Positions 3,019 through 64,000 of a stretch of DNA of 64,000 nt are shown here, piece by piece (position 1 is the first letter of the stretch; each line of letters starts with the position of its first letter). Origin of the DNA: a virus; IMG/VR virus record IMGVR_UViG_3300045988_169015, positions 1 through 64,000 of that record. One strand, given 5' to 3'. The notes under the pieces were generated by a model. That model made no database searches. It saw only the letters and a program-made list of their open reading frames with translations, and was not told the DNA's origin. A program made the translations under genes and the position numbers.

Positions 3019-3453
3019 TTATGCCTCATTTAACGCTTTAATGATGGCATCTTGTGTAAATGACATTGCCCACGATGCTCCCGAGTTTAAAAATTCCTCT
3101 GGCGATTCATAAGATTTATCGATCTTTACGCCAACTAACTTGTTTTTATGCGCTTTACTTTTTGCAACCTCAAAATTAATCCAGTTTTTATAACCTATTT
3201 CTTCGCTATCAGGATGCTTCTTATTGGCTTCAGCACCTATAATGACTAAAGTATATGTTGTTGTATTGATTCGTCTTGTTAGTCCTGCTTTTATTCTTGA
3301 AATATCATTTGATTGAATTTCATCAGAAGAACAATCTTCGAAAACAAAATCCATATTTTTATTTTTATCCCAAGCATCTAAAAGGAACTTATAATGTTTG
3401 TCATTGGTATAATCAAATGAAACGAAAACTTTTTTCTTAGACATCTTAGACAT
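3019..3453 (-). CDS. TIR-like domain protein (DUF1863 / ThsB-type)
   Basis: ATG at 3453 is preceded by AAAGGAG. KKVFVSFDY, TLVIIGAE and NWINFEVAKS match the TIR-like DUF1863/ThsB pattern. The longer ORF-track start at 3516 has no RBS. Confidence 0.7.
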   Translation of the reverse strand: MSKMSKKKVFVSFDYTNDKHYKFLLDAWDKNKNMDFVFEDCSSDEIQSNDISRIKAGLTRRINTTTYTLVIIGAEANKKHPDSEEIGYKNWINFEVAKSKAHKNKLVGVKIDKSYESPEEFLNSGASWAMSFTQDAIIKALNEA

Positions 3454-3661
3454 AGTAATATCTCCTTTAAAATAAAGAATAGAGGTGAGTATCCTAATGG
3501 TTTTAAAAAAATGCAATCATAATTGGAAAATCGACCACGAATGTTTTATTTATGATGCTTATAGTCCTTTATCGCATTGTAATAAAATAAAAATAATCTA
3601 TTATAAATGCGACAAGTGCTTAAGAGTAAAAAAAGAAAAGCTGTGGTAAACCCATATATAG

Positions 3662-36189: not shown

Positions 36190-36633
36190 TTACTTCACGC
36201 AGACCAATATTTCTACATCAGTATCGACAAAAACTTCTGCAATGATTGCTTTTACTTTAGACCACTCAAGTTTATCTAATCCGCAACCGATTCTTGGCAT
36301 TGCGAGTTTTACATTCTCATCATTCATTGTTCCCTCACAACACAAAAATTCAGCATCTTCAAGAGCCATTCTCATTGTTTCGTAAGTGGGCTTTTGCCAA
36401 TACTTTTCCTTAGTAACAAGATTAAGTTCTGCTCTCCAACCTGTTGTATTAGATACTAAGCAGTCCCCTACTTCTATATTTTGATAATTTCTTTGAAGTT
36501 GTGCTTTTACTCCTCGCTTTGCAAACTCCTTAGCTATTCCTGCACCCATTGCAAGGTCTGTGCTAATACAGTGAACAAGAATATGACCCGTTGGAACTGT
36601 AAATAAGTCTCGCTGTTCTTCTCTGAAAGTCAT
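36190..36633 (-). CDS. macrodomain protein, TARG1/OARD1-like
   Basis: DLF..LVHCISTDLAMGAGIAKEF, QKPTYE and LAMPRIGCGLDKLEWSKVKAIIAEVF..TDVEI closely follow the TARG1/OARD1 pattern, including the Lys and GCGLD Asp positions. Confidence 0.8.
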   Translation of the reverse strand: MTFREEQRDLFTVPTGHILVHCISTDLAMGAGIAKEFAKRGVKAQLQRNYQNIEVGDCLVSNTTGWRAELNLVTKEKYWQKPTYETMRMALEDAEFLCCEGTMNDENVKLAMPRIGCGLDKLEWSKVKAIIAEVFVDTDVEILVCVK

Positions 36634-38081: not shown

Positions 38082-38627
38082 TTAATTATTTCTCAAATAT
38101 TCCAATACTTCATTTACGATATCATCATAATCTTTGATATCGCCACTGCGAACAGTGTATGGGATATTCCAAGAATTCAATTTTTCCATCAATGGAGCTA
38201 CAAGAGCGTCGCTTTCTTCCTCGGTCTGAAGCCTGCCTTTAGGATTATAGGGCTTTACTCTCTTTAACAGATATGTTTTGTTATTAAATGAAGAGAAGCA
38301 ATTATATACGGTTTTGTCAAACTCTTTACCAAGAATTTTGCTTGAATTGTAAAATGAAGACAATAGCAAAGGAGAGTCAGTTACAATTACATCGACCTTA
38401 TCTTTACAGCGGTTCATTTTATAAAATTGTTTGCCGAATATATAAATCTGATTATCGGGTTGAAATATGGTTGGGTTTTCTTCCCACACCTTGTCTTTGG
38501 CAAATTCTGTAATCAGTTCAGCGTTTATGCCAGCCATCTTGAGTTGACTGAAAATATAAGCTGCTCCAGTGCTTTTGCCTGCGCCGGGAACGCCGAATAG
38601 ATTAACTACTAAGCAATTCGTATCCAT
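38082..38627 (-). CDS. P-loop NTPase/kinase-like protein
   Basis: Walker A GVPGAGKST at the N-terminus and Walker B-like VIVTDSP. AAAGGAGG RBS. Confidence 0.55.
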   Translation of the reverse strand: MDTNCLVVNLFGVPGAGKSTGAAYIFSQLKMAGINAELITEFAKDKVWEENPTIFQPDNQIYIFGKQFYKMNRCKDKVDVIVTDSPLLLSSFYNSSKILGKEFDKTVYNCFSSFNNKTYLLKRVKPYNPKGRLQTEEESDALVAPLMEKLNSWNIPYTVRSGDIKDYDDIVNEVLEYLRNN

Positions 38628-57677: not shown

Positions 57678-57969
57678 TCGCATTGTCCTTTCCGAGCAAA
57701 CAGTTTGCTCTTTTCTGTGTTTCTTCTATCGCCTTCTGAATTTCCTGTGGTGAATTCTTGAGCGTTATATCTACAAAGTTCGATATATCTGCAATCAATG
57801 CTGATCTATCATCACCTGTAAATCCGTTGATTTTATCCTTAATGACCTGACAAAAAGCCTGGCTGCCATAAGAAAAGCCAATATTAAACTGCTTCTGCAG
57901 TTGTGTCTTATAAACTGCCTGAAGTTTTGCGATATTGTTATCAACTGTTTCAATCTGATGTGACTTCAT
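57670..57969 (-). CDS. hypothetical protein
   Basis: ATG 57969 with GGCGGAG RBS. About 99 aa. Confidence 0.45.
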   Translation of the reverse strand: MKSHQIETVDNNIAKLQAVYKTQLQKQFNIGFSYGSQAFCQVIKDKINGFTGDDRSALIADISNFVDITLKNSPQEIQKAIEETQKRANCLLGKDNANE

Positions 57970-58756
57970 TGTTCTTCTCCGCCTTTCCGTCAAGATCGGG
58001 TCTGTATCTGAACTTAGGCATAGGCTTCAGCTTATGCAGATTTGCATAATGCTTTCCGTCTATGATCTTCTTGGTGTCTTCGTCACATTCGCCTGTACGG
58101 ATGTACTTATCGAGTGTCTCATATGTAAATCCGAGATTCTCCTCATCAGTCTTACCGCAGAGACCGTCAGTAGGCACCTTATCGATCAGACAGCTGGGAA
58201 GCCCAAGTTCTCTGCCGATTGCCTTAACTTCCTGAACGGTAAAATCGTGGAGAGGGCTGAAATCACCTGCACCATCACCGAACTTGGTTGCGTAGCCGAC
58301 CCAATCTTCACTGAGATTGCAGGTATTGGCTACTCTGCCGCCCCTAAGAGCAGAAACGCAATAAAGGATTGTCATACGAGTTCTGGCAGGGTAATTCGTA
58401 TTCATACACCTGATCTTATTCTCAGGGCATCCAATGGTGTGTATCTGCACAGTTTCATCAACCACTTTGCAAACATCCTCGATGTTAATTTCATACACGT
58501 TCTTATCGGGAATTCCGCATACAGTGCAAGCCGTGTAAGAATATCTGATATCACCCTGCTTACCTCTGGGGAGCAGCACTGCAATTACTCTCTCGGAACC
58601 AAGAGCCTCTGCGCACAGCTTAAGTACCACAGAACTATCCTTGCCGCCCGAAACACCGACGACGGCAGTTGTATTCTCATCGCCGTTCTTGTCAAAGTAC
58701 CAGCGGATCCAGTCAATAATCTTGGAAGTTATCTTCTTTGCATTAAAATCATTCAT
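57950..58756 (-). CDS. nadE: NH3-dependent NAD+ synthetase
   Basis: PP-loop VGVSGGKDSS with NadE-like length and downstream motifs. GAGAGGAA RBS. Confidence 0.8.
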   Translation of the reverse strand: MNDFNAKKITSKIIDWIRWYFDKNGDENTTAVVGVSGGKDSSVVLKLCAEALGSERVIAVLLPRGKQGDIRYSYTACTVCGIPDKNVYEINIEDVCKVVDETVQIHTIGCPENKIRCMNTNYPARTRMTILYCVSALRGGRVANTCNLSEDWVGYATKFGDGAGDFSPLHDFTVQEVKAIGRELGLPSCLIDKVPTDGLCGKTDEENLGFTYETLDKYIRTGECDEDTKKIIDGKHYANLHKLKPMPKFRYRPDLDGKAEKNNEVTSD

Positions 58757-58768
58757 CTTAATTTCCTC

Positions 58769-59020
58769 TCATTCGTCCAAAGTTATAGAATTATTAATTT
58801 TTATTACGATTTCGTCATCACTCATATAGGAAGCCGCTCCAGATTGAAGATTAACAACACAAGAATAGTCACTAACATCAATCGTTGGCAAGTTCACATT
58901 GGGAATAATACGTATATCGGTATTGATATAGTAAGAACCATTCTTCATAAATAAATTTCCGACTGGTATATCTCCTAATGTGACTATTTTATAACTGTTT
59001 CTGATTCCAATTTGTGCCAT
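58769..59020 (-). CDS. hypothetical protein
   Basis: 83 aa with AAGGAG RBS. It lies inside the NAD cluster. Confidence 0.5.
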   Translation of the reverse strand: MAQIGIRNSYKIVTLGDIPVGNLFMKNGSYYINTDIRIIPNVNLPTIDVSDYSCVVNLQSGAASYMSDDEIVIKINNSITLDE

Positions 59021-59024
59021 AATA

Positions 59025-59453
59025 TCACTCCTTTTTTACATATCCCATTTCCACCTGCCAGCAGAGAGTTGCCAGGGCATTACAAGCCTCGAAAAGTCCG
59101 GCCTTGTCGTCAAGAAATAAATTATAATATATTTTCAAACCGTCTCCATATCTGCCGATTTCCGGGATATTCTCGTTAATGGTATCGAATGGAAGGTTCT
59201 CATCATGAAGAAACTGAATATTCTTTTCGTTATGGGGATTGGCTGTAAACACGATGAAATAAGGATTTAAAATTGTTTTCGCTTTACGTATCAAATTCTT
59301 CGCATGGTCACAGCATTCGCTTTTATACGGCCTCACTGTATCGTCAAGGTCATATGCAATAATCAAGCGTTCATGCTCGATATAGGCATCCCTGAGACGC
59401 TTATACAGAAAACCACCTACGAAAGCATCGTCTTCTTTTACTGTTGATGTCAT
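59025..59453 (-). CDS. small HAD-superfamily-like hydrolase
   Basis: DxDxT motif (AYDLDDTV). 142 aa. The ATG overlaps the upstream stop (ATGA). Confidence 0.5.
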   Translation of the reverse strand: MTSTVKEDDAFVGGFLYKRLRDAYIEHERLIIAYDLDDTVRPYKSECCDHAKNLIRKAKTILNPYFIVFTANPHNEKNIQFLHDENLPFDTINENIPEIGRYGDGLKIYYNLFLDDKAGLFEACNALATLCWQVEMGYVKKE

Positions 59454-60919
59454 CAGAAACCTCCTTCATAAAGCATATTACGAACGTCAGCAAGCGTCTG
59501 AGTATTATAGCATTTACCATCCTCGAACACTGTGCGGAACAAGCCATTGACAGGAACTGTCTCAGCTGTAAAGCCGTCCTGATACTTTATCTCGCCGTGC
59601 TCTTTATAGATAAAGCACATACCCTTCTGGGACTTCTTGAATCTCGTATCTGTCTTGGGATTCTTAAAAATCATTATGGGCTTACCATCTACCTCACCAT
59701 AAGTCGCCTTAATAGCTATTGAATATGTATCACGGGTAAAAGGCTTGAGCATATTGTCCTCTTCAACGCACATCATTGAGAAGCTGCCGACACCGAGGAT
59801 TACATTATTGCAGGCAAAACCGTTGTCAATGAGCCTCTGGTATATCTGCTGACAGCGCTGAACGGTGATACTGTCCCCGTAAATCGCCTTAACGTGAGGG
59901 TCGAGTACCTTATAACCCTTGCTGTTGACTGTTCCGCCGAATTCTTCCCAGAGTGCAAACACAGTTTCGGTCACTATCTCAACAGGGTCTCCGCTGTCCC
60001 CTCTTATCAGCATACAGCCGTTGTGAGCCATAATTTCAGGCTTTAGCTGAGGCAAAATATTATTGACTACATTCCAGTAATCATAAGAATCGCATACTAC
60101 ACTGAAACTGTTATTGGGATAAAGCTCAGTCAGCAGCTTACGGAGAAATGTAATCTCGTCGCCGTCAATAGAGAAGTTGCTGGTCATCACTGAATGTTCG
60201 GTAGACACTGCCCCGTATGCTACGGGCTCCTTGGTGCAATCGCAGTGATAATACTTTTCCAGCCAAGGGATTGCGGGCACTGTCGCTGTATTCAGAAACG
60301 AAGTACACCAACCGGCAGAAGAAGCGATTGCGCTTTCAAGACTATGCTGACCTCTGAACGAGAAGTCACCGAGAGCCTTGGCTCTGGGCACGCCATCTTC
60401 AACGCTGATGTCGTAGAACTTATCAACGATCTGACGATACCAATAACCCACATTTGCAGACACCATTGGATGCCAGAGTGAAGCACTCATAAGACTTTCA
60501 AGGAACTGTCCGACCCATACAAAGTCAGGGTGTGTGCTGCTTATTTCCAGCATAGGAACGTGCATGGGGACACGGGTTCCCTCGGGAAGTGCCGATATCT
60601 TAACGGGCAAATAGCCCAGCTCGTGAAGAGCTCTGATTTTTGCGGTATCATATGTACCCTTGCCGAGAGTGCTGCCGAGAACTCTTTCATACTCGGCGCA
60701 GATCTCATCGACAGGCTTATTGAAAAATTCGTTATTGAAATATTCCACAAGATACTTCTCGATGAACGCCTGAAGTCCGAAGAAGACGAGTTTGTCATCG
60801 TGTACTCTGGACATTCTTGGTGTCATATAGGATACGAGCTTAGTGAGCTTGGGACTAAATTGAGCCTGATGGGTCATCTTATAAAAATCGCCCAGAAGCA
60901 TTGGCATTATTTCATTCAT
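59453..60919 (-). CDS. NAMPT-family type II phosphoribosyltransferase (NadV/Namat-like)
   Basis: GDFYKMTH, DFSFRG, IRGDSGDP, IYGDSIT and KKSQKG motifs. 488 aa. Confidence 0.8.
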   Translation of the reverse strand: MNEIMPMLLGDFYKMTHQAQFSPKLTKLVSYMTPRMSRVHDDKLVFFGLQAFIEKYLVEYFNNEFFNKPVDEICAEYERVLGSTLGKGTYDTAKIRALHELGYLPVKISALPEGTRVPMHVPMLEISSTHPDFVWVGQFLESLMSASLWHPMVSANVGYWYRQIVDKFYDISVEDGVPRAKALGDFSFRGQHSLESAIASSAGWCTSFLNTATVPAIPWLEKYYHCDCTKEPVAYGAVSTEHSVMTSNFSIDGDEITFLRKLLTELYPNNSFSVVCDSYDYWNVVNNILPQLKPEIMAHNGCMLIRGDSGDPVEIVTETVFALWEEFGGTVNSKGYKVLDPHVKAIYGDSITVQRCQQIYQRLIDNGFACNNVILGVGSFSMMCVEEDNMLKPFTRDTYSIAIKATYGEVDGKPIMIFKNPKTDTRFKKSQKGMCFIYKEHGEIKYQDGFTAETVPVNGLFRTVFEDGKCYNTQTLADVRNMLYEGGF

Positions 60920-61740
60920 ATGAAATTACCTCTTATTTCTGTTATTTTGTCGTTTTCAATGGGGATTTCCAGTGTATTGACTGTATAGATATGATCAATC
61001 CAGTCTGTCGTGAGCAGTATTCCTTCATACACAGCCTTTTCAAGATGAGTTACAAACAAATCTACCTTAGCTGCACCTGCCGCTTTAAGAGCCTGAGCTG
61101 CAAGAATAAATGTGCCGCCCTTAACACAAAGGTCATCGATTATCAGAATGTTTTTGTCCTTAATATCGGGGGCATTAACCAGCTCATACTTTTCAATCTT
61201 TCCGGTTGAAAGCTCACGCTTCTTGTTACCGTAAAAGTAATTAGTATATGTAAGGTGCTCGCCAAAAGACTTGCAGGCTCCATTATCAGGATAAAATACG
61301 TAATCGGGGGCACTTCGCCTATGTACTTCTTGAATACCGGCATCGTATATAACTTTGACGTTGTTAATAAGCGCCGGAGTTACATTGGAGTGAGGTGTAA
61401 GTATTGTTACCGAATCAAAATTAAGAGAATTGATGATATCGGCAACATATCTGAGGCTGAACGCCATTGAAGACATCTGCCTATCCATTCTTGAATATGG
61501 CATATATGCAATGGTCAGAGTTATAATTGCTTCATCCCAACCGTAATCAACTCTGTTTTCCTTTGACTGTTCATCAAGACACTTCTTGGCCACAATGAGC
61601 TTAAAGATATCAGCGTCCGATTCATATACAAGCTTGATTTCATTTACTGCATCCTTGACATAATAAGTTCCCATATCAAAAATGGTTTCACCATTAGGAA
61701 AACTTTTATCTCCAAAAGGTGCATTATTTATGTAAATCAT
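60916..61740 (-). CDS. ribose-phosphate pyrophosphokinase family protein (Prs/Adps-like)
   Basis: YMPYSRMDR (compare Prs YARQDR) and PRPP-type loop ILIIDDLCVKGGT. It overlaps the NAMPT-like start by 4 nt. Confidence 0.75.
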   Translation of the reverse strand: MIYINNAPFGDKSFPNGETIFDMGTYYVKDAVNEIKLVYESDADIFKLIVAKKCLDEQSKENRVDYGWDEAIITLTIAYMPYSRMDRQMSSMAFSLRYVADIINSLNFDSVTILTPHSNVTPALINNVKVIYDAGIQEVHRRSAPDYVFYPDNGACKSFGEHLTYTNYFYGNKKRELSTGKIEKYELVNAPDIKDKNILIIDDLCVKGGTFILAAQALKAAGAAKVDLFVTHLEKAVYEGILLTTDWIDHIYTVNTLEIPIENDKITEIRGNFI

Positions 61741-61742
61741 AG

Positions 61743-62315
61743 TTATACCTCGCTCTCGTTTATGATATCAATCTGACAGCTCTTCATAACTTCGAGTGCC
61801 GCCTTATGCTTTTCAGGTGTTGATCCGGCACAACAGGAGGCGTCAACAACGATTGGCATATCGGGAAGTGCAGCTCTCACCATGAGGGCATTGGATACAA
61901 CACAGATATCGGTGTCCAGCCCGATAAATTCAATTTCGTCGAACATTTTACCTTCACGAATAAGTAAACTCATAAGCTGGGTACTGCCAAATGTGTTCTT
62001 AAGAACGATGTTCCCTTCTCTGACTTCGGGCTCCAATATTGCATATGTATTGGAGTGATACCATGCGTCAGCGACATCATCATTTATCATCCAGCCGAAA
62101 GAACGAGCGAGACAGTGCTGAACAGGAAGTTTTCTCCCCTCAAGAGTTTCAGCATAATCGTTATAATGAGTATCTTTTGTGAATAAAATTGCCGTGTTTT
62201 TATCAGCAGATTTGATTTTTTCAACTACATTAGGAACGATTGCCTGTGCTGCATCAGAACCGAGAGACCCATCGATAAAGTCATTCTGCATATCAACCAC
62301 TACGAGAAGTTTCAT
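61743..62315 (-). CDS. pncA: nicotinamidase (isochorismatase/cysteine hydrolase family)
   Basis: VVVDMQNDF (Asp), FTKDTH (Lys), LPVQHC and GLDTDICV (Cys). Confidence 0.7.
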   Translation of the reverse strand: MKLLVVVDMQNDFIDGSLGSDAAQAIVPNVVEKIKSADKNTAILFTKDTHYNDYAETLEGRKLPVQHCLARSFGWMINDDVADAWYHSNTYAILEPEVREGNIVLKNTFGSTQLMSLLIREGKMFDEIEFIGLDTDICVVSNALMVRAALPDMPIVVDASCCAGSTPEKHKAALEVMKSCQIDIINESEV

Positions 62316-62649: not shown

Positions 62650-62990
62650 GGTCAATTTTAGCCGCACAGCCAAAAGAATTAAGCAGCTGTACGGCAAATA
62701 CTGTAAAAGATTACCTTGATGGATTTCACAACCATCTCTCCTTATGATTTGATTTGTATATGTAAATCGCCACTATGGGTGAACGATGAACTCTGGGCAC
62801 AGTTGACTTCATCACAATCTCCAACCCAATCAAACAGAATTGAATACTGCTTGTGAACTACCGACCGTCTAAAGCCAGTCGGCTTCTTGCTTCATCGTCC
62901 TCGTAACCTACTAACTTCACAAGCGTAAATTCCGATAGTTCCTACCGTACTACATTATTATTTAGGCTGATTTAATCAGCCTTAATCCTT
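62650..62990 (-). ncRNA. probable TnpB guide RNA (omega/reRNA) scaffold and IS right end
   Basis: About 300 nt of non-coding sequence directly 3' of tnpB, with several stems: AGGCTGAT/ATCAGCCT at the stop, GAAGCCGACTGGCTTTAGACGGTCGGTAGTTCAC, and a 10-bp imperfect hairpin at 62661-62695. The boundaries are not determined. Confidence 0.45.
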
Positions 62991-64000
62991 CATACAAAAT
63001 ATTTATAGCAGCGTTTATATCTCTGTCGTGACGTGTATTACAACAAGGACAAGTCCACTCTCTTACAGATAAATCCTTAGTTTCCTTATTAATATACCCA
63101 CATACACTACAAGTCTGACTACTTGGAAAGTAAGTATCAATCTTGATATACTGTCTACCATTCCAGTGAACCTTGTACTGTAACTGCCTTGTAAGTTCAT
63201 ACCAACTACAATCAGAAATACTCTTTGCAAGATTATGATTTTTAACCATATTGCTAATTTTTAAGTCCTCACTCACTATCAGTTGGTTTTCCTGAATTAG
63301 TTTGTGAGAAATTTTATGCAAATTATCAACACGGATATTTGTTATCTTCTCATACAGTCTTGCGACTTTAATACGCTGTTTGTTCCTATTATTGCTACCC
63401 TTTGTCTTTTTAGCAAGTTTTCTTTGCTCCTTTGCAAGTTTCTTTTCATACTTGTAAAGAGTTTTGGAGTTTTCAAACTTTTCACCATCAGATGTGATGA
63501 CTAAATCCTTGATACCTAAATCAATACCAACCATAGCACCAGTAGACTTCATCTGAAAATTCTCACAATTTACAAGAATAGAAATAAAATACTTGCCACT
63601 TGGCGTTTGAGATAAAGTTGCAGATTTAATTATACCAACAAATACTCTATGAACTTTTGCTTTTACCCATTTAAGTTTTGGAAGCTTAATTCTGTTCTTC
63701 TCGAAATCAACCTCTATGTTGTTGTTTGTACTGTTAGTAGAATAAGATTTATGATTATTCTTCTTACTTTTGAATTTAGGATAACCAGAATGTTCTTTGA
63801 AAAATTTCTGATATGCGCTATCCATATTATAAACAGAATTAGTAAGAGCAAATTTGTCTACCTCTTTAAGCCATTCATATTCTTTTTTAAGAACTTGATT
63901 AACATAGTTGTTACAACCTATCTTGTTTATAGATTTCTTTTCTGCTTCATAAAGATTTTTCCTATAAGCAAGCGTCTGATTATAAACAAATCTACAACAA
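62962..64000 (-). CDS. tnpB: TnpB (IS605 OrfB) RNA-guided nuclease, N-terminus cut by window end
   Basis: The frame stays open to position 64000 (..[21 protein letters not shown].. upstream of the ORF-track Met). C-terminal [23 protein letters not shown] zinc finger/RuvC motif. Confidence 0.85.

What the first reader, a model, noticed from the sequence alone, without database searches (positions are those of the whole stretch)
57950..62315. NAD+ rebuilding cluster: a NARP1-type Prs-like/NAMPT-like pair extended by nicotinamidase, NAD synthetase and a HAD-like protein, with no NMNAT
Seen in the sequence: six co-directional, tightly packed or overlapping genes. They encode an isochorismatase-type nicotinamidase (VVDMQNDF, LPVQHC, GLDTDICV) and a Prs-family pyrophosphokinase (YMPYSRMDR, ILIIDDLCVKGGT). 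Next come a NAMPT-family transferase (GDFYKMTH, DFSFRG, IRGDSGDP, KKSQKG) and a small DxDxT HAD-like protein. The last two are an 83-aa unknown and NadE (VGVSGGKDSS). I could not find a (H/T)xGH nucleotidyltransferase (NadD/NadR/NMNAT type) anywhere in the 64 kb. Established knowledge: a Prs homologue (Adps) plus a NAMPT homologue (Namat) form the phage NARP1 pathway. That pathway rebuilds NAD+ from ADP-ribose and nicotinamide and defeats NAD-depleting defences. Inference: PncA and NadE have no role in amidated NARP1. They would make sense if nicotinamide is deamidated to nicotinic acid, the NAMPT-like enzyme couples nicotinic acid to ADPR-PP to give NaAD, and NadE amidates NaAD to NAD+. That would be an NMNAT-independent deamidated reconstitution branch, which to my knowledge has not been described. 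Alternatively, the cluster merges two salvage routes as redundancy.
Basis: partly seen in the sequence, partly recalled or inferred. Interest (0 to 1): 0.85.

Follow-up and report, generated by a model that had tools for sequence, protein, structure and literature searches.

The report
Nicotinic-acid version of phage NAD+ rebuilding
A gut phage carries a tightly packed gene set that most likely rebuilds NAD+ from ADP-ribose and nicotinamide by a detour through nicotinic acid; no paper I could search describes this route, yet the same gene set sits in more than 150 phage and gut-bacterial sequences.

Summary
The six co-directional genes are real and sit at the stated coordinates: a nicotinamidase (PncA), an Adps-type Prs-like kinase, a Namat-type NAMPT-like transferase, a small HAD phosphatase, an 83-aa unknown and an NH3-dependent NAD synthetase (NadE).

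The Prs-like and NAMPT-like proteins resemble the verified NARP1 enzymes far more than cellular Prs or Nampt.

The main new result is in the transferase. The Asp that hydrogen-bonds the nicotinamide amide (Namat D215, human NAMPT D219, the specificity residue) is Ala here. The neighbouring pocket residue A242 is Ser. This A/S state defines a monophyletic clade.

- In 94 viral loci of that clade, PncA is within 6-8 kb in 86 and NadE in 84.
- In 79 canonical D215 loci, both are present in 0.
- Clade modules often contain the Adpp-like Macro phosphatase, which makes ADP-ribose.
- In Clostridia genomes the module is followed by NrtR, an ADP-ribose-sensing repressor.
- No NMNAT or NadD is found in the window.

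Best reading (confidence about 0.6): PncA makes nicotinic acid, Adps makes ADPR-PP, the transferase joins them into NaAD, and NadE amidates NaAD to NAD+.

Main rival: the transferase makes NaMN and host NadD completes the pathway.

No paper I could search describes this. No enzyme assay exists yet.

The parts
61743..62315 (-). PncA-type nicotinamidase, 190 aa. Proposed step 1: nicotinamide to nicotinic acid + NH3.
   Evidence: PF00857 at 6e-22. The best PDB matches are nicotinamidases/pyrazinamidases: 1ILW at 1e-7 and 3PL1 at 3e-6. The catalytic residues D8, K106 and C138 and the nicotinamidase metal motif D48-x-H50...H67 are present. It is linked to the A/S transferase in 86 of 94 viral loci and to none of the 79 canonical loci.
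60916..61740 (-). Adps-type Prs-like pyrophosphokinase, 274 aa. Proposed step 2: ADP-ribose + ATP to ADPR-PP + AMP.
   Evidence: It is 38-40% identical to the verified SPbetaL1 Adps (E 1e-32), 30% to ICP1 Adps and 21% to E. coli Prs. It scores 75.6 bits on TIGR01251 (cut-off 113); the verified Adps also fail, at 106 and 98 bits. Adps residues F18, R87, H121, D161, K185, D212 and D213 are conserved. It is about 40 aa shorter than E. coli Prs, and its PP loop reads DDLCVKGGTF, lacking the Prs 'DT'.
59453..60919 (-). Namat-clade NAMPT-like transferase with a remodelled base pocket, 488 aa. Proposed step 3: nicotinic acid + ADPR-PP to NaAD + PPi.
   Evidence: It matches SPbetaL1 Namat (9W5W/9W5X) at 2e-119, against 4e-54 for Xanthomonas Nampt and 1e-45 for human NAMPT. 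The A/S clade is monophyletic in 100 of 100 NJ bootstraps and nested among D215 Namat-type sequences in 76 of 100. Pocket and core residues D11, Y13, F186, R189, R306 and D308, and clamp residues R38 and F380, are kept.
60284..60286 (-). Codon for Ala212, the position of Namat D215 and human NAMPT D219.
   Evidence: The HMMER alignment to 9W5X has no gaps here. Ala is found in 121 of 121 closest sequences and in all 94 A-clade viral loci. D215 hydrogen-bonds the nicotinamide amide, and D215A lowers NAD+ formation 8-fold (PMC12774641). In human NAMPT, D219S switches substrate and D219A abolishes activity (PMC4919578, PMC7096376, citing Khan 2006).
60203..60205 (-). Codon for Ser239, the position of Namat pocket residue A242.
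   Evidence: Ser is found in 121 of 121 closest sequences and in every A-clade locus, and Ala in every D215 sequence.
59729..59788 (-). Altered selectivity-clamp helix (SCH) region, G378-D397: GSFSMMCVEEDNMLKPFTRD.
   Evidence: The canonical Namat motif is GSFTYQYNTRD. The A-clade keeps GSF and TRD but carries an insertion of at least 9 aa and loses the aromatic at Y396. The F392-T398 segment is 6 aa in 77 of 79 canonical loci and at least 15 aa in all 94 A-clade loci.
59025..59453 (-). Small capless HAD phosphatase, 142 aa. Accessory gene; substrate unknown.
   Evidence: HAD motifs D35xD37xT39, T70, K107 and D115-D116 are invariant in 14 homologues. The profile hits PDB 2OBB at 3e-8, and more weakly other HAD proteins. 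Homologues lie next to Adps or Namat in 14 of 94 A-clade loci and 12 of 79 canonical NARP1 loci.
58769..59020 (-). 83-aa protein of unknown function.
   Evidence: Only a weak phrog_7431 hit at 4e-4. Homologues were found only in the two nearly identical phage contigs. It is not a conserved part of the module.
57950..58756 (-). NH3-dependent NAD+ synthetase NadE, 268 aa. Proposed step 4: NaAD + ATP + NH3 to NAD+.
   Evidence: TIGR00552 at 155 bits (cut-off 64) and PF02540 at 3e-46. The SGGxDS loop is at residues 36-41. The best PDB matches are NH3-dependent NadE: 2E18 at 1e-26, then 3P52 and 3FIU. It is linked to the A/S transferase in 84 of 94 viral loci and to none of the 79 canonical loci.
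36190..36633 (-). Macro-domain protein, 147 aa, 21 kb from the cluster. Possibly an Adpp-like ADPR-1''-phosphate phosphatase; its membership in the system is uncertain.
   Evidence: PF01661 at 1.8e-5. It is 30% identical (E 4e-10) to the Macro family that lies inside other A-clade modules and inside canonical Adps-Macro-Namat operons.

Best explanation
This is a deamidated variant of the phage NAD+ reconstitution pathway NARP1. Defence NADases cut NAD+ into ADP-ribose and nicotinamide.

1. The phage nicotinamidase (PncA) converts nicotinamide to nicotinic acid and ammonia.
2. The Adps-type kinase pyrophosphorylates ADP-ribose with ATP to give ADPR-PP.
3. The Namat-type transferase has lost the amide-binding Asp (Ala212) and gained a Ser (Ser239) in its base pocket. 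It joins nicotinic acid to ADPR-PP and gives nicotinic acid adenine dinucleotide (NaAD) directly, so no NMNAT or NadD is needed.
4. The NH3-dependent NadE amidates NaAD to NAD+, and could re-use the ammonia released in step 1.

The net cost is one ATP more than in NARP1. The small HAD phosphatase is an accessory shared with canonical NARP1. It probably trims a phosphorylated ADP-ribose or NAD(P)-derived species into a usable substrate.

What is shown: the family assignments, the pocket substitutions, and the gene co-occurrence. What is inferred: the substrates of steps 2 and 3, and the anti-defence role.
For: 1. The transferase is a Namat relative: 2e-119 to the solved SPbetaL1 Namat, against 4e-54 for bacterial Nampt.
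2. It keeps Namat-type clamp residues R38 (=R40) and F380 (=F392). Bona fide phage Nampt (RB43, 6E35.1a) have GGG at the F392 position and a shorter loop.
3. Two of the seven nicotinamide-pocket residues named in PMC12774641 are changed, D215 to A and A242 to S. The change is invariant in 121 of 121 closest homologues.
4. That Asp is the NAMPT specificity determinant (PMC7096376; the table in PMC4919578).
5. Viral loci with the A/S state have PncA in 86 of 94 and NadE in 84 of 94; loci with the D/A state have 0 of 79 for both.
6. After dereplication at 90% identity the counts are 24 and 21 of 28 viral clusters, 35 and 34 of 39 genome clusters, and 0 of 59 canonical clusters.
7. The four genes are kept in two different orders and at 46-60% divergence once flanks are widened to 10 kb.
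8. The partner kinase is Adps-type. The window's copy belongs to the SPbeta-type Adps lineage rather than the main A-linked lineage, so Adps lineages appear interchangeable.
9. An Adpp-like Macro gene, known to convert ADPR-1''P to ADP-ribose (bioRxiv 10.64898/2026.01.28.702374), lies inside 43 of 91 viral A-clade modules. It belongs to the same family as the Macro gene in canonical Adps-Macro-Namat operons.
10. NrtR, an ADP-ribose-responsive repressor (PMC2330246), follows NadE in 61 of 79 bacterial loci, and a microbial PARG gene follows it in L015.
11. No NMNAT or NadD signature occurs in the window or in 80 viral A-clade loci.
12. The NrtR-controlled Preiss-Handler operon of C. acetobutylicum is pncA-pncB-nadD-nadE (PMC2330246). 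Here pncB-nadD is replaced by the Adps/Namat-like pair.
Against: 1. There is no biochemistry for any member of this clade.
2. The published Namat signature GSX-phi-X-phi-X-phi-TRD is broken by an insertion of at least 9 aa, and the aromatic at Y396 is lost. Adenine recognition of ADPR-PP may therefore be weakened.
3. Canonical Namat can also use PRPP in vitro (PMC12774641), so NaMN formation cannot be excluded.
4. D215A in SPbetaL1 Namat lowers nicotinamide-dependent activity only about 8-fold, so some nicotinamide use may remain.
5. The A/S clade is monophyletic, so the association with PncA and NadE may trace to one origin. It is then evidence of long retention rather than of many independent events.
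6. A few A-clade loci (L008-L010) show no partner genes nearby.
7. Only 64 kb of a phage of about 111-146 kb was examined for NMNAT.
8. Removing nicotinamide, which inhibits SIR2-type NADases, is not obviously good for a phage.
Confidence: 0.6

Rival explanations
1. A Preiss-Handler salvage set that leans on the host. PncA makes nicotinic acid and the Prs-like enzyme makes PRPP. The NAMPT-like enzyme has become a nicotinate phosphoribosyltransferase that makes NaMN. Host NadD adenylylates NaMN to NaAD, and the phage NadE finishes the pathway.
For: The D-to-A and A-to-S pocket change fits nicotinic acid equally well under this model. Canonical Namat retains PRPP-dependent activity in vitro (PMC12774641). 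The adenine-clamp helix is disrupted by an insertion and Y396 is lost. NadD is present in essentially all bacteria, which is established knowledge, so its absence from the phage proves nothing. NCBI names these proteins nicotinate phosphoribosyltransferase, though that is the legacy name of the model.
Against: The kinase groups with verified Adps, not with Prs, and lacks the Prs 'DT' phosphate-loop residues. Among the loci examined here, Prs-like genes accompany Namat-type transferases; none lies within 3 kb of the NadV gene of the two T4-like phages inspected. Clamp residues R40 and F392 are retained, unlike in true Nampt. ADP-ribose-producing or ADP-ribose-sensing genes (Macro/Adpp-like, NrtR, PARG) are embedded in the modules. 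nadD never joins the module, although it does in the classical clostridial operon (PMC2330246).
Confidence: 0.2
2. Two independent salvage routes merged for redundancy. The Adps/Namat pair still runs ordinary amidated NARP1 with nicotinamide. PncA and NadE merely boost the host's own PncB/NadD route.
For: D215A leaves SPbetaL1 Namat with roughly one eighth of its activity (PMC12774641). All other core residues are intact.
Against: This model predicts no link between pocket state and PncA/NadE, yet the link is 82 of 94 against 0 of 79. The Asp is replaced in every member, with a compensating Ser. A phage nicotinamidase would compete with a nicotinamide-using Namat for the same substrate. Human D219A is listed as a loss-of-activity mutant (PMC4919578).
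Confidence: 0.1
3. A Francisella-like route. The transferase makes NaMN, NadE acts as an NMN synthetase (NaMN to NMN), and a host or unseen phage NMNAT makes NAD+.
For: The NadE scores about as well against Francisella NadE (3FIU, 6.5e-23) as against NaAD-specific NadE. A NadR-like NMNAT/kinase gene lies next to the module in 4 of 80 bacterial loci.
Against: No NMNAT occurs in the window or in 80 viral loci. Some chromosomal modules use the 650-aa glutamine-dependent housekeeping NadE. This route needs two extra assumptions. NadR-type neighbours are rare.
Confidence: 0.04

Closest known systems
NARP1 (Adps + Namat; Osterman et al., bioRxiv 10.1101/2024.02.11.579819; Namat structure PMC12774641; Adps structure PMC13586617)
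   Same: It is an adjacent Prs-like plus NAMPT-like gene pair. The kinase is 38-40% identical to verified SPbetaL1 Adps and keeps all the mutationally validated residues. The transferase is 44% identical to SPbetaL1 Namat, nests within the Namat radiation, and keeps the catalytic core and clamp residues R40 and F392.
   Different: The nicotinamide-binding Asp215 is Ala, A242 is Ser, H187 is deleted and P307 is Gly. The SCH motif carries an insertion of at least 9 aa. PncA and NadE are obligate partners, whereas they are never seen next to D215 Namat. The predicted product of the transferase is NaAD rather than NAD+, at the cost of one extra ATP.
NARP1-AP (Adps-Adpp-Namat with a Macro-domain ADPR-1''-phosphate phosphatase; bioRxiv 10.64898/2026.01.28.702374)
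   Same: The same Macro family lies inside 43 of 91 viral modules of this clade. The window has a 30%-identical Macro gene.
   Different: In this window the Macro gene is 21 kb away, not in the operon. The in-operon accessory here is a HAD phosphatase, which that paper does not mention.
Preiss-Handler salvage, PncA-PncB-NadD-NadE (for example the NrtR-regulated pncA-pncB-nadD-nadE operon of Clostridium acetobutylicum, PMC2330246)
   Same: The first and last enzymes (PncA, NadE) and the intermediates nicotinic acid and NaAD are the same. The bacterial versions are also flanked by NrtR.
   Different: PncB and NadD are missing and are replaced by an Adps/Namat-type pair. The ribose-phosphate-adenylate part would come from ADP-ribose in one step, not from PRPP plus ATP in two.
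NrtR-regulated prs-nadV operons of proteobacteria, and the bacterial NARP1 of Paenibacillus (PMC2330246, PMC12774641)
   Same: Both are cellular operons that pair a second Prs paralogue with a NadV-family gene under an ADP-ribose-responsive regulator.
   Different: Those operons carry no PncA or NadE. The biochemically tested Paenibacillus enzymes rebuild NAD+ directly from ADP-ribose and nicotinamide.
NARP2 (Nampt + NMNAT) and NARP3 (PnuC + NadR; PMC13464706)
   Same: All are phage-encoded systems that replenish NAD+.
   Different: Both depend on an NMN adenylyltransferase, which is absent here. Their Nampt lacks the Namat clamp (GGG in place of GSF).

Membership tests
Namat (nicotinamide ADP-ribose transferase of NARP1) | A NAMPT-fold protein closer to verified Namat than to PRPP-using Nampt | tested here: met
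   2e-119 to 9W5W/9W5X, against 4e-54 for Xcc Nampt and 1e-45 for human NAMPT. In NJ trees it nests among D215 Namat-type sequences, with NARP2-type NadV as the outgroup.
Namat (nicotinamide ADP-ribose transferase of NARP1) | Encoded next to an Adps gene | tested here: met
   The two genes overlap by 4 nt in the window. PrsL is present in 89 of 94 A-clade loci.
Namat (nicotinamide ADP-ribose transferase of NARP1) | SCH signature GS-X-phi1-X-phi2-X-phi3-TRD, with aromatics at positions 3 and 7 (PMC12774641) | tested here: not met
   The sequence is GSF-S-M-M-C-V-EEDNMLKPF-TRD. The position-3 Phe and TRD are kept. Position 7 is Cys, and an insertion of at least 9 aa follows.
Namat (nicotinamide ADP-ribose transferase of NARP1) | SCL stacking residue (Arg/Lys/Tyr at the third loop position, R40 in SPbetaL1) | tested here: met
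   R38 lies in TPRMSRV, and the loop has the same length as in SPbetaL1. Arg is found in 91 of 94 A-clade loci.
Namat (nicotinamide ADP-ribose transferase of NARP1) | Nicotinamide pocket F189, R192, D215, A242, R306, D13', Y15' | tested here: not met
   Five of the seven residues are kept. D215 is Ala212 and A242 is Ser239, and this is invariant in the clade.
Namat (nicotinamide ADP-ribose transferase of NARP1) | Catalyses nicotinamide + ADPR-PP to NAD+ | not testable with these tools
   This needs an enzyme assay.
Adps (ADP-ribose pyrophosphokinase of NARP1) | A Prs-like protein outside the bona fide Prs families and within the similarity range of verified Adps | tested here: met
   It is 40% identical to SPbetaL1 Adps and 30% to ICP1 Adps; the two verified enzymes are themselves 30% identical to each other. 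It is 21% identical to E. coli Prs. On TIGR01251 it scores 75.6 bits against a cut-off of 113; the verified Adps score 106 and 98.
Adps (ADP-ribose pyrophosphokinase of NARP1) | Residues F18, R87, H121, D161, K185, D212 and D213 (PMC13586617) | tested here: met
   All seven are conserved in the query and in 74-75 of 75 A-linked homologues. Most are shared with Prs, so they do not discriminate between the two families.
Adps (ADP-ribose pyrophosphokinase of NARP1) | Loss of the C-terminal alpha11-alpha12 module of Prs | tested here: met
   It is 274 aa against 315 aa for E. coli Prs, and the TIGR01251 match ends at model position 274 of 309. This was judged from length and alignment only.
Adps (ADP-ribose pyrophosphokinase of NARP1) | Remodelled PP loop | tested here: inconclusive
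   The query has DDLCVKGGTF. SPbetaL1 has DDLSSFGGTF, ICP1 has DDICDGAASF and E. coli Prs has DDMIDTGGTL. The query lacks the Prs 'DT', but the loop also varies among verified Adps.
Adps (ADP-ribose pyrophosphokinase of NARP1) | Converts ADP-ribose + ATP to ADPR-PP | not testable with these tools
   This needs an enzyme assay.
PncA nicotinamidase | Isochorismatase fold with a Asp-Lys-Cys triad and the D-x-H...H metal site | tested here: met
   PF00857 at 6e-22. D8, K106 and C138, and D48, H50 and H67, align with 1ILW and 3PL1. However, the NCBIfam PncA equivalog scores only 19 bits against a cut-off of 174.
NadE (NH3-dependent NAD+ synthetase) | Passes the curated NadE model, has the SGGxDS loop and lacks a glutaminase domain | tested here: met
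   TIGR00552 scores 154.7 bits against a cut-off of 63.65. SGGKDS is at residues 36-41. The protein is 268 aa with no CN_hydrolase domain. Its preference for NaAD over NaMN was not tested.
HAD phosphatase superfamily | Motifs I-IV (DxDxT, S/T, K, DD) | tested here: met
   D35xD37xT39, T70, K107 and D115-D116 are invariant in 14 homologues. PDB 2OBB matches at 3e-8.
Preiss-Handler pathway operon | Contains PncB and NadD | tested here: not met
   There is no PncB-type or CTP_transf_like/NadD gene in the window. The NMNAT-type signature is absent from all 80 viral A-clade loci.
NARP1-AP | A Macro-domain Adpp encoded in the NARP1 operon | tested here: not met
   The window's Macro gene is at 36190-36633, 21 kb from the cluster. 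The feature is met in 43 of 91 related viral modules.

The most novel reading that the evidence does not exclude
The A212/S239 Namat-like proteins are a new enzyme, a nicotinate:ADPR-PP transferase that forms NaAD in one step. It would define a four-enzyme, NMNAT-independent 'deamidated NARP1' (PncA, Adps, the new transferase, NadE). The pathway would be widespread in large gut phages. In gut Clostridia it would also serve as an ADP-ribose-induced, NrtR-controlled housekeeping route that recycles ADP-ribose and nicotinamide back into NAD+. That would be a previously unrecognised fourth way into NaAD/NAD+ in bacteria.
Probability: 0.55. Interest if true: 0.85.

Novelty: new variant of a known kind. 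Interest (0 to 1): 0.8.

Why it matters
NAD+ depletion is one of the commonest bacterial anti-phage strategies. Three phage pathways that rebuild NAD+ have been described (NARP1, NARP2, NARP3), plus NARP1-AP, an extended NARP1 with an added phosphatase. All of them work on amidated pyridines.

If this reading holds, it adds several things.

- **A new reaction.** Nicotinic acid + ADPR-PP to NaAD would be a new reaction for a well-studied enzyme fold. It comes with a simple sequence rule: D215 to A plus A242 to S, with PncA and NadE as neighbours. That rule would re-annotate hundreds of genes now named 'nicotinate phosphoribosyltransferase' or 'NadV'.
- **A blind spot in isolate-based surveys.** Counter-defence repertoires drawn from cultured phages miss this variant. 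Only 1 of 50,697 GenBank phage records carries it, yet it is common in gut viromes.
- **A cellular role.** The same module appears to be a cellular NAD+ recycling operon under ADP-ribose control in Lachnospiraceae, Ruminococcus and Oscillospiraceae. This bears on vitamin B3 metabolism models of the gut microbiome.
- **A direct test.** The specificity-switch hypothesis for the conserved NAMPT aspartate becomes testable in a natural enzyme family.

Tried and rejected
- **Megablast against GenBank phages.** Searching the 4.4-kb cluster found nothing. By protein search, only one unannotated faecal record exceeds 60% identity.
- **Promoter and terminator scans.** They were at chance level and did not define the transcription unit. 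The operon is inferred from gene spacing only.
- **Spurious plus-strand ORF.** My greedy ORF picker chose a 306-aa plus-strand ORF (58034-58954) over NadE. It is antisense to a gene with strong family matches, and I treated it as spurious.
- **ICP1 Namat.** The ICP1 isolate I fetched gave only a 28-aa fragment with my ORF extraction. I left it out of the tree.
- **Adps active-site residues.** I tried using them to separate Adps from Prs. Most are shared with Prs, so they do not discriminate. Family-level similarity and curated cut-offs were used instead.
- **NARP3 paper.** I read the paper to see whether NARP3 was this pathway. It is PnuC + NadR and is unrelated.
- **NadR-like genes.** I asked whether the NadR-like genes near some bacterial modules rescue the NadD-dependent model. 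They are NMN-specific NadR-type enzymes, present in only 4 of 80 loci.
- **83-aa protein.** No informative match in Pfam, NCBIfam or PHROGs.
- **Not attempted.** I did not run structure prediction of the transferase, because the tools return no coordinates or ligands and could not address the clamp question. I could not take a whole-genome census of pncB and nadD in host genomes, or scan the rest of the phage genome.

Full report
**1.

On the minus strand of the window there are six consecutive ORFs:
- 61743-62315 (190 aa)
- 60916-61740 (274 aa)
- 59453-60919 (488 aa)
- 59025-59453 (142 aa)
- 58769-59020 (83 aa)
- 57950-58756 (268 aa)

Neighbouring genes overlap by 1-4 nt or are separated by at most 12 nt.

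Profile searches give the following:
- Isochorismatase: PF00857, 6e-22.
- A Prs-like protein: phrog_619 at 2.6e-64. All NCBIfam Prs models score far below their cut-offs.
- A NAMPT-family protein: NF006629 at 447 bits, phrog_448 at 3e-155.
- No Pfam family for the 142-aa and 83-aa proteins.
- NadE: TIGR00552 at 155 bits against a cut-off of 64.

The rest of the window is a large phage. It encodes NrdD/NrdG, ThyX, dUTPase, a PolIII alpha subunit, DnaB, a ligase, tail and lysis genes, and an integrase. Two nearly identical IMG/VR contigs of 111 and 146 kb carry the same nine-gene stretch.

I found no NMNAT or NadD in the 64 kb. No nucleotidyltransferase signature occurs in any ORF of 60 aa or more, and no CTP_transf_like family appears in Pfam scans of 65 further ORFs. 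Two caveats apply. Only the 25 strongest families per scan were listed, and the phage is larger than the window.

**2. The Prs-like and NAMPT-like proteins belong with the NARP1 enzymes**

*The 488-aa protein*
- It matches the solved SPbetaL1 Namat (9W5W/9W5X, identified as Namat in PMC12774641) at 2e-119.
- It matches Xanthomonas Nampt at 4e-54 and human NAMPT at about 1e-45.

*The 274-aa protein*
- It is 38-40% identical to the experimentally verified SPbetaL1 Adps (E 1e-32).
- It is 30% identical to the structurally characterised ICP1 Adps. I confirmed that the residue numbering of UniProt F1D1Q1 fits the ICP1 protein.
- It is 21% identical to E. coli Prs.
- The two verified Adps are themselves only 30% identical to each other, so the window protein lies inside the family's known range.
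- It fails the TIGR01251 cut-off (75.6 against 113 bits), as do both verified Adps (106 and 98 bits).
- It keeps F18, R87, H121, D161, K185, D212 and D213.
- It is about 40 residues shorter than Prs at the C-terminus.
- It has VK where Prs has the 'DT' of DDMIDTGGT.

Most of those residues are shared with Prs. The family assignment therefore rests on overall similarity and on the curated cut-offs.

**3. The transferase has a remodelled base pocket**

PMC12774641 lists seven residues that form the nicotinamide pocket of Namat: F189, R192, D215, A242, R306, D13' and Y15'. D215 hydrogen-bonds the amide, and D215A lowers NAD+ synthesis about 8-fold. The equivalent residue in human NAMPT is D219. 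Reviews citing Khan et al. 2006 describe it as the determinant of substrate specificity. They list D219S as switching the substrate and D219A as abolishing activity.

In the window protein five of the seven pocket residues are unchanged. D215 is Ala212 and A242 is Ser239. The HMMER alignment has no gaps in this region. The same two residues occur in all 120 closest database homologues, at 64-92% identity.

Other changes specific to this clade lie nearby: H187 is deleted and P307 is Gly. The 'selectivity clamp helix' motif GSFTYQYNTRD has become GSFSMMCVEEDNMLKPFTRD. GSF and TRD are kept, an insertion of at least 9 aa is present, and the Y396 aromatic is lost.

The clamp loop has the same length as in SPbetaL1 and keeps the stacking Arg (R38 = R40). 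Genuine PRPP-using phage Nampt (RB43 and a KVP40-like vibriophage) instead have GGG at the F392 position and a shorter loop.

**4. The pocket state predicts the neighbours**

I fetched viral contigs with the window protein as bait, and separately with SPbetaL1 Namat as bait. I then scored the flanks (6-8 kb on each side) with HMMs built from the module's proteins.

| Pocket state | Loci | PncA | NadE | Both | Prs-like |
|---|---|---|---|---|---|
| A/S | 94 | 86 | 84 | 82 | 89 |
| D/A (canonical) | 79 | 0 | 0 | 0 | 70 |

After dereplication at 90% identity:

| Group | Clusters | PncA | NadE |
|---|---|---|---|
| A/S viral | 28 | 24 | 21 |
| A/S bacterial | 39 | 35 | 34 |
| D/A viral | 59 | 0 | 0 |

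The four genes occur in at least two orders: PncA-Prs-Nam-NadE and Prs...Nam...NadE-PncA. Several deep-branching members seemed to lack NadE with 6-kb flanks. They have it, plus a Macro gene, once the flanks are widened to 10 kb.

In NJ trees the A/S clade is monophyletic in 100 of 100 bootstraps. It is nested among D215 Namat-type sequences in 76 of 100. The association may therefore go back to one origin. What the data show is long-term joint retention through extensive sequence divergence and gene reshuffling.

A small sub-lineage (L008-L010) is an exception. No partner genes were found near it.

**5. The company the module keeps points to ADP-ribose**

I clustered the remaining neighbours and scanned representatives against Pfam. 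Two recurrent accessories came out.

*Macro-domain protein (about 157 aa)*
- It lies inside 43 of 91 viral A/S modules, usually between the transferase and NadE.
- It belongs to the same sequence family as the Macro gene found in the canonical Adps-Macro-Namat arrangement.
- That arrangement is NARP1-AP, in which the Macro protein Adpp converts ADPR-1''-phosphate to ADP-ribose.

*NrtR (NUDIX + NrtR winged helix)*
- It follows NadE in 61 of 79 bacterial loci.
- These loci come from Lachnospiraceae, Ruminococcus, Oscillospiraceae and other Clostridia MAGs.
- DNA binding by NrtR is released by ADP-ribose.

One chromosomal locus, on a 428-kb contig, also carries a microbial PARG gene.

The window's own Prs-like gene belongs to the SPbeta-type Adps lineage rather than to the main lineage linked to A/S transferases. 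Different Adps lineages therefore appear to serve the same transferase clade.

Finally, the NrtR paper lists the classical clostridial operon as pncA-pncB-nadD-nadE. The present module looks like that operon with pncB-nadD replaced by an Adps/Namat-type pair.

**6. The most likely mechanism**
1. PncA deamidates the nicotinamide released by NADases.
2. Adps makes ADPR-PP from ADP-ribose.
3. The modified transferase couples nicotinic acid to ADPR-PP and yields NaAD directly.
4. NH3-dependent NadE makes NAD+, possibly re-using the ammonia released by PncA.

An enzyme specific for nicotinic acid explains why a nicotinamidase is an obligate partner: defence systems release nicotinamide, not nicotinic acid. 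It also explains why NadE is needed and why no adenylyltransferase is.

Possible advantages are my own speculation:
- trapping the freely diffusing nicotinamide as an anion;
- an extra ATP-driven, irreversible step;
- compatibility with hosts that deamidate nicotinamide rapidly.

I put this explanation at about 0.6.

**7. Rivals**

*NaMN route through host NadD (about 0.2).* The transferase makes NaMN from PRPP and host NadD completes the route. It is kept alive by the disrupted clamp helix and by the residual PRPP activity of canonical Namat. The Adps-type kinase, the retained R40 and F392, the ADP-ribose-linked accessories and the consistent absence of nadD all count against it.

*Two redundant routes (about 0.1).* This conflicts with the strict link between pocket state and neighbours, and with substrate competition between PncA and a nicotinamide-using Namat.

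*Francisella-like NMN-synthetase route (about 0.04).* This needs an NMNAT that is not there. NadR-like genes sit beside the module in only 4 of 80 bacterial loci.

**8. The other two genes**

The 142-aa protein is a capless HAD phosphatase. All four motifs are invariant and it matches PDB 2OBB at 3e-8. Its homologues sit next to Adps or Namat in 14 of 94 A/S loci and in 12 of 79 canonical loci. It is therefore a general NARP1 accessory, not part of the deamidated logic. Its substrate is unknown. A phosphorylated ADP-ribose or an NADP-derived species is a reasonable guess.

The 83-aa protein is confined to the closest relatives and remains unexplained.

**9. Novelty**

Full-text searches of the held library returned no paper that links NARP1-type enzymes to nicotinic acid, NaAD, PncA or NadE. 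The search terms were NARP1, Namat + nicotinic acid, nicotinamidase/NAD synthetase/Adps, ADPR-PP + NaAD, and NARP4.

The original NARP paper and the NARP1-AP paper contain none of these terms, and the NARP3 paper mentions nicotinic acid and NaAD only as general background on NAD+ metabolism. The section of the Namat structure paper that I read describes only nicotinamide as the base substrate.

NARP3 is PnuC + NadR. Among 50,697 GenBank phage records, only one unannotated faecal contig carries a close homologue. That probably explains why surveys based on cultured phages missed it.

I rate it a new variant of a known kind. It uses the same scaffold and logic as NARP1, with a predicted new substrate and product for the key enzyme and two added obligate steps. 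Subscription-only literature could not be searched.

Noticed in passing
window 3019-3516 (-): The phage encodes a 165-aa protein with a ThsB-type TIR-like domain (PF08937, 4e-10). That is unexpected in a phage that also carries an NAD+-rebuilding module. It could be a decoy, a signal-degrading enzyme or a nucleoside-processing enzyme.
   Followed up: no
window 36190-36633 (-): A 147-aa Macro-domain protein (PF01661 at 1.8e-5, with weak DarG-like similarity). It is 30% identical (E 4e-10) to the Adpp-like Macro family that is embedded in related modules. It may supply ADP-ribose to the cluster from 21 kb away.
   Followed up: partly
window 38082-38627 (-): A 181-aa P-loop protein just above the AAA_28 threshold (29 bits). 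This Pfam family matches the C-terminal half of the NadR-like (CTP_transf_like + AAA_28) genes found beside four bacterial modules. It may be a stand-alone nicotinamide-riboside-type kinase.
   Followed up: no
window 62962-63825 (-): An N-terminally truncated IS605-family OrfB/TnpB (Cas12f-like TNB domain) lies just upstream of the cluster. A full-length OrfB also flanks the related module in L014 (11342-12526). This hints that the module moves with IS605-type elements.
   Followed up: no
L195:10226-11065 and 60 other genome loci (L178-L257): In gut Clostridia MAGs the PncA-Adps-Namat*-NadE module is followed by an NrtR regulator (NUDIX + NrtR_WHD). This implies an ADP-ribose-induced cellular NAD+ recycling operon. 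That operon is not among those listed in the 2008 NrtR regulon paper.
   Followed up: partly
L015:11574-12419: A microbial-type PARG gene (PF10021, 1e-40) lies directly after a glutamine-dependent NadE in a chromosomal copy of the module. It may release ADP-ribose from modified proteins to feed the pathway.
   Followed up: no
L118:9967-10443, L118:10443-11033 and other canonical NARP1 loci (L097-L176): Canonical D215 NARP1 operons often carry two further genes: a nucleoside 2-deoxyribosyltransferase-like gene (PF15891, 23 loci) and a HAD_SAK_2 phosphatase (about 10 loci). The NARP papers I read do not discuss these accessories.
   Followed up: no
L112:7474-7947, L116:9442-9840, L130:7514-7948 and others: Homologues of the window's 142-aa HAD phosphatase sit between or beside Adps and Namat in 12 of 79 canonical NARP1 loci. 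This suggests a second, non-Macro 'associated phosphatase' type of extended NARP1.
   Followed up: partly
L008-L010 (also held as L278, L279, L282, L284): A divergent A/S sub-lineage has R40 replaced by His, G360 by Glu, and a 26-aa clamp insertion. No Prs-like, PncA or NadE gene lies within 10 kb. Its function may differ again.
   Followed up: partly
L262 (Prevotella phage Lak-B8) and L132: These NAMPT-like proteins have Glu instead of Asp at the D215 position (GSETVP), and no PncA or NadE is nearby. This is a third pocket state of unknown significance.
   Followed up: no
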